Positions 1 through 962 of a stretch of 10,530 nt of DNA are shown here, piece after piece. Origin of the DNA: a virus (lineage: Duplodnaviria > Heunggongvirae > Uroviricota > Caudoviricetes); IMG/VR virus record IMGVR_UViG_3300029241_000040. One strand, given 5' to 3'. The notes under the pieces are model-generated. The model saw only the letters and a list, made by a program, of their open reading frames with translations. It had not been told where the DNA came from and did no database searches. The translations under genes and the position numbers were made by a program. The first letter of the stretch is position 1; each line of letters starts with the position of its first letter.

Positions 1-128
1 ATCGGTGGAGCTGCATGACAAAGTCATCGGGCATTATCTGAACATAAAACACTATCAATAAGTTGGAGTCATTACCGCAATGATCATTAATATACGTCTC
101 ACAAATAATTCTTCATAGATATTGCAAA

Positions 129-902
129 ATGGATATTACTGAGTTTCCTTCTGGAGTAATTGAACACCTTGGCTGGTATGTATACCGATTGATTGATCCG
201 AGGGACGGAAGCACCTTCTATGTAGGGAAAGGCAAAGGTAACCGCGTATTTGCCCATATGCGCGGTGAAGTGGCAGCGACTGATGATGACGAGTTACTGA
301 GCAACAAGCTAAAGCAAATTAGAGAAATAAGGTTAGCAGGACTTGAGGTTATCCATGTCATCCATCGACACGGAATGACTGATGAAAAGACGGCGTACGA
401 AGTTGAAGCAGCACTTATTGATGCCTACCCTGGGTTAACGAATATCATGAATGGTGCTGGCAGCAATGAATTCGGCGCCGCGCATGTCAAAGAGTTGATA
501 GCAACATATCAACCCGAAACCATAATATTTCATCATAAAGCATTAATGATTTCCGTTAACAGAAGTGCAAAGGATTCAGAGCTTTATGATGCGGTTCGAT
601 TTAGCTGGCGCATTAATGTCTCTCGCGCTAGCCAAGCAGAAGTCATTCTTGCTACTGTAAGGGGGATCGTTCGAGGGGTTTTCATTGCTGATAAATGGCT
701 CAAATCAACACGTGAAAATTTCCCTACGATGAAATACTGGGACGAGGATCCGGACTTTGAGGCAACACAAAGTTCTCGCTATGGTTTTGAAGGTCGAGAA
801 GCCTCACCTGAAATAGCAAATCTTTATCTTGGAAAAAAAATACCAGATGAATTAAGAAAAAAAGGAGCTATGTCCCCGGTCCGTTACTCACCTAATTTTT
901 GA
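129..902 (+). CDS. GIY-YIG nuclease-domain protein with an uncharacterised C-terminal domain (257 aa); candidate defence or cargo nuclease
   Basis: ORF of 257 aa. N-terminal motifs seen in the translation: W-Y-V-Y-R-L (GIY-like, aa 16-21), F-Y-V-G-K-G (YIG-like, aa 30-35), Arg39, and [15 protein letters not shown] (catalytic Glu93 and Asn105 pattern typical of GIY-YIG). C-terminal residues about 115-257 have no motif I recognise. The gene is AT-rich relative to neighbours and convergent with the invertase gene. Confidence 0.8.
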
Positions 903-926
903 GTCTTTAAGTGATAAGCATAAACC

Positions 927-958
927 GCAGCACGATCTTCTTGCATACGACGTGCTAC
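927..958. terminator. Possible bidirectional hairpin between convergent genes
   Basis: gcagcacg (927-934) and cgtgctac (951-958) form a 6-7 bp stem around a 16-nt loop in the 60-bp gap between two convergent stop codons. The stem is weak and there is no strong U-tract. Confidence 0.2.
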
Positions 959-962
959 GGTT

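What the first reader, a model, noticed from the sequence alone, without database searches (positions are those of the whole stretch)
1..962. AT-rich compositional island at the prophage terminus
By eye, roughly the first 900 bp are markedly AT-richer than the baseplate genes (about 35-45% GC against clearly more than 55%). The first 128 bp are non-coding, with only weak -10-like hexamers (for example TAATAT at 89-94) and no clear Shine-Dalgarno before the ATG at 129. This fits a recently acquired, independently transcribed cargo gene, and the upstream region may hold its own regulation.
Basis: seen in the sequence. Interest (0 to 1): 0.35.

Follow-up and report, generated by a model that had tools for sequence, protein, structure and literature searches.

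The report
Known anti-phage nuclease CMoRE, IS1-truncated
The AT-rich first 0.9 kb is the already characterised phage-defence gene PD-T4-3/CMoRE, a nuclease that cuts the hydroxymethylcytosine DNA of T4-like phages; it sits in the variable end slot of a decayed prophage with an IS1 element cut into its upstream region, so the feature is real but ordinary.

Summary
The low GC is real: 1-962 is 42.4% GC and the ORF has GC3 0.36, against 57-59% GC and GC3 0.61-0.66 in the baseplate genes. It does not end at 962. It runs through pin and the invertible tail-fibre segment, and the only strong compositional changepoint is at about 3328.

The "non-coding 128 bp" is wrong. Bases 1-76 are the right end of IS1, including the last 19 codons of insB. 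Only 52 bp of native leader (77-128) remain.

ORF 129-902 is PD-T4-3/CMoRE. It matches the PADLOC model at E 9e-140 and is 251/257 identical to the crystallised E. coli O157:H7 enzyme (PDB 9U75). That enzyme is a type IV GIY-YIG restriction endonuclease specific for 5hmC and glucosyl-5hmC DNA.

Comparison with relatives fixes the cargo boundaries:
- Homology to e14 of K-12 stops at the pin stop codon (962/963); e14 carries mcrA in that position.
- In O157:H7 a serU att junction lies about 180 bp upstream of the start codon.
- The window's closest relatives carry an EcoRII restriction-modification pair upstream instead.

The cargo-gene reading is supported. The idea that the upstream region holds the gene's own regulation is undercut by the IS1 truncation. 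Nothing here is new.

The parts
1..76 (+). Right end of insertion sequence IS1. Bases 2-61 are the last 19 codons plus stop of insB; the terminal inverted repeat is about 54-76. The transposase reads towards the defence gene.
   Evidence: Identical to the end of the annotated IS1A in L002. Translation gives SVELHDKVIGHYLNIKHYQ*. Thousands of IS1 hits in E. coli genomes.
77..128 (+). Residual native 5' leader of the CMoRE gene: 52 bp, 26.9% GC, no Shine-Dalgarno. It holds TAATAT at 88-93 and a weak TGATCA-17-AATAAT site at 81-109.
   Evidence: Homology to IS-free relatives starts at base 77. GC. Promoter and SD checks.
129..902 (+). [quoted passage not shown]
   Evidence: PADLOC PD-T4-3 at E 8.7e-140 over the full length. 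Pfam LEM-3_GIY-YIG. 251/257 identical to PDB 9U75. Function from PMC12923530.
903..962 (.). Spacer between the convergent CMoRE and pin genes, with a hairpin (about 913-971). This is the last stretch not shared with e14.
   Evidence: Fold energy -19.8 kcal/mol, z -2.8. The alignment with K-12 e14 becomes homologous only from about 961-963. It did not pass the terminator scan.
963..1517 (-). pinE-type serine DNA invertase (184 aa as annotated in relatives). It is the conserved neighbour of the cargo slot.
   Evidence: Pfam Resolvase and HTH_7. Annotated pinE in L001, L002 and L015. 92% identical to e14 pinE.
1579..3447 (.). Pin-invertible tail-fibre segment, bounded by 20-nt inverted repeats at 1579-1598 and 3428-3447. 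It makes up the rest of the low-GC zone.
   Evidence: Inverted repeat I1. The same segment is found flipped in L009, L011 and L013. Tail-fibre assembly and gp53-like domains. GC changepoint at 3328.

Best explanation
Bases 129-902 encode PD-T4-3, renamed CMoRE. [quoted passage not shown]

Mechanism, as published for a 97.7%-identical enzyme: the C-terminal domain binds 5-hydroxymethylcytosine or glucosyl-hydroxymethylcytosine in incoming DNA of T-even phages. The N-terminal GIY-YIG domain then cuts that DNA. An acidic loop over the active site protects normal and 5mC-containing host DNA.

Location: the gene is accessory cargo in the variable slot between the pin invertase and the attachment end of an e14/Mu-tail-type prophage that is now defective. 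E. coli K-12 e14 carries the type IV enzyme McrA in the same slot.

Composition: the low GC is typical of this gene throughout Enterobacterales. It is shared with the neighbouring pin and invertible tail-fibre cassette, so the compositional island is about 3.3 kb long, not 0.9 kb.

IS1: in this window an IS1 element abuts the gene 52 bp before its start codon. It replaces the rest of the roughly 180-bp native leader and whatever lay beyond, which is an EcoRII restriction-modification pair in the closest relatives.

Inferred, not shown: the intact gene is still transcribed weakly. The likely sources are a residual weak promoter in 77-128, an IS1-end/leader hybrid promoter, or read-through from IS1, which points the same way.
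For: Identity of the gene:
- PADLOC PD-T4-3 at E 8.7e-140, covering residues 1-256 of 257.
- phrog_5356 at E 3.8e-143.
- PDB 9U75 at E 3e-170 with six substitutions; PDB 9U7U at E 1.5e-150.
- Y17, Y19, Y31, R80, V92, L96, Y127 and the acidic run D52-E55 are all present. The paper names these residues.

Published function:
- T2, T4 and T6 are restricted about 10^5-fold.
- Only 5hmC or glucosyl-5hmC DNA is cleaved, not C or 5mC DNA (PMC12923530).
- The system is active in a native host.
- A distant homologue works at leaky expression levels.

Slot and boundaries:
- e14 homology starts at 961-963.
- A serU att junction lies about 180 bp upstream in O157:H7.
- The divergent APEC/O18 allele sits between a pin remnant and ssrA.
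- The block EcoRII / M.EcoRII / CMoRE / pin occurs in 10 of 10 places that carry the identical protein.
- L006 is colinear with window 77-10497 at 99.83% identity.

IS1.

Composition.
Against: - No expression or phenotype data exist for this strain.
- The best native promoter-like site (TTGTGA-17-TAATAT, 8/12) loses its -35 to IS1. The IS1-derived replacements are poor: TTGGAG with a 19-bp spacer, 7/12.
- No site reaches the 9/12 scan threshold, and there is no Shine-Dalgarno sequence. The gene could therefore be nearly silent here.
- The left side of the IS1 lies outside the window. Insertion cannot be told from IS1-mediated adjacent deletion, and the true distance to the prophage end is unknown.
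- The six substitutions relative to the crystallised enzyme are untested. T51 and E55 lie in or next to the autoinhibitory loop.
Confidence: 0.9

Rival explanations
1. The gene is intact but effectively switched off in this strain. The IS1 junction at -52 removed the native promoter, and IS1 acts as a polar block, so the locus is a silent or decaying remnant of a defence gene.
For: - The native 8/12 site TTGTGA-17-TAATAT loses its -35 in the window.
- No hybrid promoter has a good spacer.
- IS1 placed upstream in the same orientation can raise, lower or leave unchanged a downstream gene's transcription (PMC8764528).
- The surrounding prophage is already defective: the DNA-circulation gene is truncated and abuts Q.
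Against: - The ORF is undamaged and its DNA is 100% identical over 77-1000 to IS-free relatives.
- A second weak site, TGATCA-17-AATAAT at 81-109, is retained.
- IS1 carries an outward -35 box and reads towards the gene.
- A distant PD-T4-3 homologue defends at leaky expression.
Confidence: 0.3
2. One reading: a recently acquired gene with its own promoter and regulatory region inside 1-128, at the very end of the prophage.
For: - Low GC and GC3.
- The gene converges on pin and is separated from it by a hairpin.
- The O157:H7 relative has the att junction just upstream.
- The native promoter of the O157 gene is functional when cloned.
Against: - Bases 1-76 are IS1, not the gene's own upstream DNA.
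- Only 52 bp of native leader remain.
- GC does not separate the gene from pin and the invertible segment.
- GC is the same in all enterobacterial homologues, so it says nothing about how recent the acquisition was.
- The closest relatives have two more cargo genes between this gene and the chromosome.
Confidence: 0.1
3. The ORF is a selfish GIY-YIG homing endonuclease or a repair nuclease rather than a defence enzyme.
For: Weak hit to phrog_314, homing endonuclease, at E 0.0034. The Pfam domain is named after the repair nuclease LEM-3.
Against: - Full-length matches at E 1e-140 to 1e-170 to PD-T4-3/CMoRE, with experimentally shown defence and modification-dependent cleavage.
- The gene is not inserted within another gene, an intron or an intein.
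- The C-terminal domain is the 5hmC sensor.
Confidence: 0.01

Closest known systems
CMoRE / PD-T4-3 of E. coli O157:H7 (WP_000355475.1; PDB 9U75 and 9U8D). First found in ECOR68 by Vassallo et al. 2022; characterised in Nat Commun 2026 (PMC12923530).
   Same: 257 aa and 97.7% identical. It has the same GIYxY-YIG motif, acidic lid loop, C-terminal sensor domain and single-gene architecture. It has the same neighbour (pinE) and the same 52-bp proximal leader.
   Different: Six substitutions: A51T, D55E, T133I, K169Q, H197N and P226S. In O157:H7 the gene is followed upstream by about 180 bp of leader and a serU att junction. Here IS1 replaces everything beyond -52.
CMoRE of E. coli APEC O1 (WP_000353910.1; PDB 9U7U) and the same allele in strain O18
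   Same: Same family and fold (E 1.5e-150). It also lies in the pin-to-att slot of an e14-like prophage, there at ssrA.
   Different: About 75% nucleotide identity, and DNA homology starts exactly at the ATG. It has the opposite orientation relative to pin, and different neighbours (a DUF262 protein and a DinI-like gene). Its native promoter is reported as weak.
McrA (EcoKMcrA) of cryptic prophage e14, E. coli K-12
   Same: It occupies the same position, immediately beyond pinE at the att-proximal end of a related prophage. [quoted passage not shown]
   Different: No DNA homology upstream of window ~961, and the K-12 record annotates a different enzyme. From my own knowledge, not tested here: McrA is an HNH nuclease acting on 5mC/5hmC. 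It is co-directional with pin, whereas the gene here converges on pin.
IS1 fusion promoters and IS1-mediated adjacent deletions (Prentki et al. 1986; Turlan and Chandler 1995; reviewed in PMC9330008; ST131 afa example in PMC8764528)
   Same: IS1 lies in the same orientation directly upstream of a gene, with its outward -35-bearing inverted repeat next to an AT-rich leader that contains -10-like hexamers.
   Different: No well-spaced hybrid promoter is formed here: the best is 7/12 with a 19-bp spacer. No expression data exist. Whether a target-site duplication is present cannot be checked.

Membership tests
PD-T4-3 / CMoRE (type IV GIY-YIG restriction endonuclease) | Full-length match to the family profile | tested here: met
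   PADLOC PDLC04031 PD-T4-3 at E 8.7e-140, residues 1-256 against profile positions 1-255 of 256.
PD-T4-3 / CMoRE (type IV GIY-YIG restriction endonuclease) | Close sequence identity to an experimentally characterised member | tested here: met
   251/257 identical to 9U75 (O157:H7 CMoRE) at E 3.3e-170. 9U7U matches at E 1.5e-150.
PD-T4-3 / CMoRE (type IV GIY-YIG restriction endonuclease) | 'GIYxY-YIG' motif with three tyrosines (Y17, Y19, Y31) | tested here: met
   The sequence GWYVY...FYVG has Y17, Y19 and Y31. The motif is defined in PMC12923530.
PD-T4-3 / CMoRE (type IV GIY-YIG restriction endonuclease) | Inserted autoinhibitory loop with four consecutive acidic residues | tested here: met
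   D52-D53-D54-E55 are present. O157:H7 has DDDD and APEC O1 has DDDE. The loop's role is described.
PD-T4-3 / CMoRE (type IV GIY-YIG restriction endonuclease) | C-terminal modification-sensing domain (5hmC contact at Y127) and oligomerisation residues V92 and L96 | tested here: met
   The alignment is continuous to residue 257. Y127, V92, L96 and R80 are conserved. The residues are named.
PD-T4-3 / CMoRE (type IV GIY-YIG restriction endonuclease) | Single-gene system | tested here: met
   There is no co-oriented partner gene in the window; the neighbours are IS1 and the convergent pin. The EcoRII pair upstream in relatives is a separate, divergently or oppositely transcribed system.
PD-T4-3 / CMoRE (type IV GIY-YIG restriction endonuclease) | Cleaves 5hmC/glucosyl-5hmC DNA but not C or 5mC DNA; protects against T-even phages | not testable with these tools
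   Shown for the 97.7%-identical enzyme (PMC12923530), not for this allele or strain.
IS1 insertion sequence | Terminal inverted repeat and InsB C-terminus at the element's right end | tested here: met
   Window 1-76 is identical to the end of the annotated IS1A in L002. The InsB tail ...HYLNIKHYQ* is present, as is the inverted repeat ATCAATAAGTTGGAGTCATTACC.
IS1 insertion sequence | 9-bp target-site duplication showing a simple insertion | not testable with these tools
   The left end of the element is outside the window. The exact junction is absent from 5,426 complete E. coli genomes and from the species-representative genomes. IS1 copies upstream of this gene in L002 and L019 lack a duplication.
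e14-type prophage pin-to-att cargo slot | pinE invertase, an invertible tail-fibre segment and Mu-type baseplate genes (ymfQ/gp48, J/gp47, gp46, gp45, gp44) next to the cargo | tested here: met
   Pfam hits. 92-98% DNA identity to e14 pinE, ymfQ and jayE. Inverted repeats, and the segment found flipped in relatives.
   No site of 9/12 or better. The best retained native site scores 8/12 at 81-109. The -35 of the other 8/12 native site is replaced by IS1. A consensus scan cannot exclude a weak or non-canonical promoter.

The most novel reading that the evidence does not exclude
The AT-rich leader of CMoRE is a recurrent IS1 target, and IS1 rearrangements act as a crude expression switch for a potentially self-toxic nuclease. 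IS1 ends lie 153, 52 and 11 nt from the start codon in different strains, always in the same orientation, and two of those copies lack target duplications. More broadly, the pin-to-att slot of e14-type prophages may be a dedicated hotspot for type IV restriction enzymes: McrA, CMoRE, and a DUF262 protein I take to be GmrSD-like.
Probability: 0.12. Interest if true: 0.35.

Novelty: already known. Interest (0 to 1): 0.12.

Why it matters
It matters little beyond annotation. The stretch should be labelled as an IS1 right end plus PD-T4-3/CMoRE, a type IV restriction enzyme against T-even phages, and not as an unknown cargo gene with an unknown regulatory region.

For phage-therapy or host-range prediction, the strain is a candidate for resistance to phages with hydroxymethylcytosine DNA. 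The IS1 junction at -52 makes its expression uncertain.

The comparison gives a tidy example of a prophage end slot that exchanges modification-dependent nucleases. It also shows that a GC step (here at about 3328) need not coincide with the boundary of a cargo gene (here at 962/963).

Tried and rejected
- Exact IS1/leader junction. A 70-bp query across 76/77 was searched against 5,426 complete E. coli genomes. No contiguous high-identity match spans the junction: the 100%-coverage hits are either two-piece matches with IS1 about 100 bp further out, or single-piece IS1 matches of about 85% identity. A 38-mer across the junction gave 0 hits in the species-representative genomes. The source strain and the DNA to the left of IS1 stay unknown.
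- Promoter and terminator scans of the window and of the IS-free relative found nothing upstream of the gene at the tool's threshold. My relaxed scan gives only 7-8 of 12 matches.
- NCBIfam: no family matched.
- Isolated phages: none carries the gene at megablast level; only pin matches.
- Rfam on the O157:H7 leader gave only sub-threshold hits, which lie on the tRNA-Ser fragment (Plastid-psbl-rps4, sX4, tmRNA). I treated these as tRNA-like noise, and no riboswitch or leader RNA family matched. ARAGORN finds no intact tRNA there.
- Homing-endonuclease reading: rejected. The phrog_314 hit is E 0.0034 against 1e-140 for PD-T4-3.
- Compositional boundary at 962: rejected.
- Structure prediction and the large protein searches were not run, because a crystal structure at 97.7% identity already exists.

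Full report
**Observation**

A sliding GC profile and per-segment counts confirm that the left end of the window is AT-rich.
- Bases 1-962 are 42.4% GC. ORF 129-902 is 43.4% GC with GC3 0.36.
- The Mu-type baseplate genes between 3735 and 8558 are 56.6-58.7% GC with GC3 0.61-0.66.
- Only 0.7% of 962-bp windows are as AT-rich as the first one.

- The invertase gene is 49% GC and the invertible tail-fibre genes are 44-50%. Region 963-3300 averages 46.9%.
- The best single changepoint in the window is at 3328.
- Inside 1-3400 there is no meaningful split (log-likelihood ratio 4.3).

The compositional island is therefore about 3.3 kb long and contains three modules. The flagged gene is the first of them.

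**The "non-coding" 128 bp**

A search against 5,426 complete E. coli genomes showed that only bases 77 onward belong with the gene, while 1-76 match IS1 everywhere.
- Aligned to an annotated IS1A in strain MLI104K1, window 1-76 is identical to the right end of the element.
- Bases 2-61 translate to the InsB C-terminus SVELHDKVIGHYLNIKHYQ*.
- IS1 reads towards the gene.
- Only 52 bp (77-128, 26.9% GC) of native leader are left.

TAATAT is at 88-93.

**What the gene is**

Three matches identify the 257-aa product:
- Pfam LEM-3_GIY-YIG.
- The PADLOC model PD-T4-3, over its full length, at E 8.7e-140.
- phrog_5356 at E 3.8e-143.

It is 251/257 identical to PDB 9U75 and strongly similar to 9U7U.

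Those structures come from a 2026 Nature Communications paper (PMC12923530) that renames PD-T4-3 as CMoRE. The paper shows the following:
- It reduces plating of T2, T4 and T6 by about five orders of magnitude.
- It cleaves only 5hmC or glucosyl-5hmC DNA, not C or 5mC DNA. The cleavage pattern is CN11/N9G.
- It uses a GIYxY-YIG active site (Y17, Y19, Y31).
- An acidic lid loop holds it in check.
- It senses 5hmC with a C-terminal domain of a new fold, through a contact at Y127.

All of these residues are present here, including D52-D53-D54-E55. Other papers support the same function:
- The system was discovered functionally by Vassallo et al. 2022.
- It is active in a native clinical host.
- A Capnocytophaga homologue defends even at leaky expression.

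**Where the cargo begins and ends**

Against cryptic prophage e14 of K-12, homology starts exactly at the pin stop codon, window 961-963. At that point e14 carries mcrA, another type IV restriction enzyme, co-directional with pin.

On the left, the picture comes from relatives.
- In O157:H7 the leader runs about 180 bp and then meets the 3' part of tRNA-Ser(CGA) plus K-12-like serU downstream DNA. This is an att junction, so in that strain CMoRE really is the terminal prophage gene.
- The window's own lineage is different. Locus L006 is colinear with window 77-10497 at 99.83% identity, and L001 with 77-7000 at 99.99%.
- In all ten places that carry the identical protein, the order is R.EcoRII, M.EcoRII, CMoRE, pin. 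These places lie next to paoD/yagP, next to smpB-ssrA, or next to a CP4-like island.
- A 19-nt remnant of the serU core (CGGTTTTCGAGACCGGTCC) persists between the methyltransferase gene and CMoRE in these relatives.

In the window, IS1 has replaced everything beyond -52. What lies to its left cannot be known.

**IS1 and expression**

The best native promoter-like site is TTGTGA-17-TAATAT (8/12). IS1-derived substitutes are poor: TTGGAG with a 19-bp spacer scores 7/12. A second weak site, TGATCA-17-AATAAT at 81-109, is retained.

The literature shows that IS1 carries an outward -35 box. Placed upstream in the same orientation, it can raise, lower or leave unchanged transcription of a downstream gene (PMC8764528). 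It also forms fusion promoters and adjacent deletions (PMC9330008).

Other strains have IS1 in the same orientation 153 nt (seven genomes) and 11 nt (strain S51) from the ATG. Neither of those copies has a target duplication.

The window's DNA over 77-1000 is identical to the IS-free EcoRII-context lineage, not to those IS1-bearing strains. Its IS1 event is therefore probably independent.

I infer weak residual or IS1-dependent transcription of an intact gene, with about 0.6 confidence. The alternative, effective silencing, gets about 0.3. Neither is shown.

**Is low GC a sign of recent acquisition?**

Homologues in Providencia, Yersinia, Buttiauxella, Citrobacter, Raoultella and Klebsiella are 82-86% identical at the protein level. 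Their genes are all 43-48% GC, whether the flanks are 37% or 52% GC. Homologues in Planctomycetota, Actinomycetes and other high-GC groups (54-61% identity) are 53-65% GC.

Low GC is therefore a property of the enterobacterial clade of this mobile gene. It is not a clock for its arrival in this prophage.

The gene is present in 971 of 5,426 complete E. coli genomes. There are two allele groups, at 95% identity or more and at about 75%. In the second group, DNA homology begins exactly at the start codon.

**Surroundings**

- pin (963-1517) controls a segment bounded by 20-nt inverted repeats at 1579-1598 and 3428-3447.
- Relatives L009, L011 and L013 carry exactly this segment in the opposite orientation.
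- The prophage is defective. The DNA-circulation gene (7404-8558) keeps only the end of its N-terminal domain. It abuts a Q antiterminator gene (8519-9247) and a DUF968 gene.
- No isolated phage in the INPHARED collection carries CMoRE at megablast level.

**Verdict**

The cargo-gene interpretation is right, but the details about the upstream region are wrong. The object is an already characterised defence gene in a known kind of prophage accessory slot, truncated upstream by IS1. Novelty: already known. Interest is low.

Noticed in passing
L005-L014, about 6900-11400 in each locus (outside the window, upstream of the position equivalent to window base 77): Every place that carries the identical CMoRE protein has the block R.EcoRII, M.EcoRII (a 5mC methyltransferase), CMoRE, pin. 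The two systems are complementary: EcoRII cuts unmodified CCWGG, while CMoRE cuts hmC DNA and ignores 5mC. The block occurs in at least three chromosomal contexts: paoD/yagP, smpB-ssrA and a CP4-like island.
   Followed up: partly
L001 5858-5876 and L015 5808-5872: In O157:H7 a serU tRNA-Ser(CGA) 3' fragment plus K-12-like serU flank lies about 180 bp upstream of CMoRE, forming an att junction. The EcoRII-context relatives keep only a 19-nt core (CGGTTTTCGAGACCGGTCC) between M.EcoRII and CMoRE. This suggests that the two cargo modules were joined at an att core.
   Followed up: partly
L002 3309-4076; L019 1809-2576; L020; L021; L017 6877-8039: IS elements cluster round this gene. IS1 ends lie 153 nt and 11 nt upstream of the ATG, in the same orientation and without target duplications. 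IS1 lies downstream, replacing pin, in two strains (one with a clean 9-bp duplication, CATACGTCG). An IS3 sits in the CMoRE-pin spacer of strain E4.
   Followed up: partly
window 1579-1598 and 3428-3447: These 20-nt inverted repeats (95% complementary) bound a 1.87-kb segment that relatives L009, L011 and L013 carry in the opposite orientation. It is the pin-invertible tail-fibre cassette caught in both states. The window's main GC changepoint (3328) lies about 100 bp from the right repeat.
   Followed up: partly
window 7404-9247: The DNA-circulation gene keeps only the last third of its N-terminal domain (384 aa against 458 aa in intact relatives). It overlaps a Q antiterminator gene. The head, tail-shaft, tape-measure and lysis modules are missing, so the prophage is a deleted remnant. 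The same deletion is present in L006, L009 and L013.
   Followed up: partly
L016 2836-6774 (strain O18): The divergent APEC-type CMoRE allele (about 75% nucleotide identity, with homology starting exactly at the ATG) sits between a pin remnant and ssrA. A DUF262 protein and a DinI-like pseudogene sit with it; I take the DUF262 protein to be GmrSD-like, which I did not test. Together with mcrA in e14, this suggests that the slot collects modification-dependent nucleases.
   Followed up: partly
L030-L101: CMoRE homologues at 54-61% protein identity over the full length occur in Planctomycetota, Acidobacteriota, Actinomycetes, Chloroflexota, cyanobacteria and other groups. 250 species-representative genomes were confirmed. 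That is unusually high conservation across phyla for a defence gene, and the gene's GC tracks the host in those groups.
   Followed up: partly
window 1518-1553: The mechanical ORF for pin starts at the ATG at 1553 (196 aa). RefSeq annotates the 184-aa form starting at 1517, and the Pfam resolvase domain begins at residue 15 of the long form.
   Followed up: no
window 1-76: The window begins 76 nt inside IS1. This is what a short-read assembly contig end inside a repeat (k-mer of about 77) would look like. The IS1 junction may therefore be all that the source assembly resolves.
   Followed up: no
window 9261-10256: This ORF is a DUF968 protein with a weak HNHc_6 nuclease match, next to the Q antiterminator gene in the late-regulatory remnant. 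I did not examine it further.
   Followed up: no
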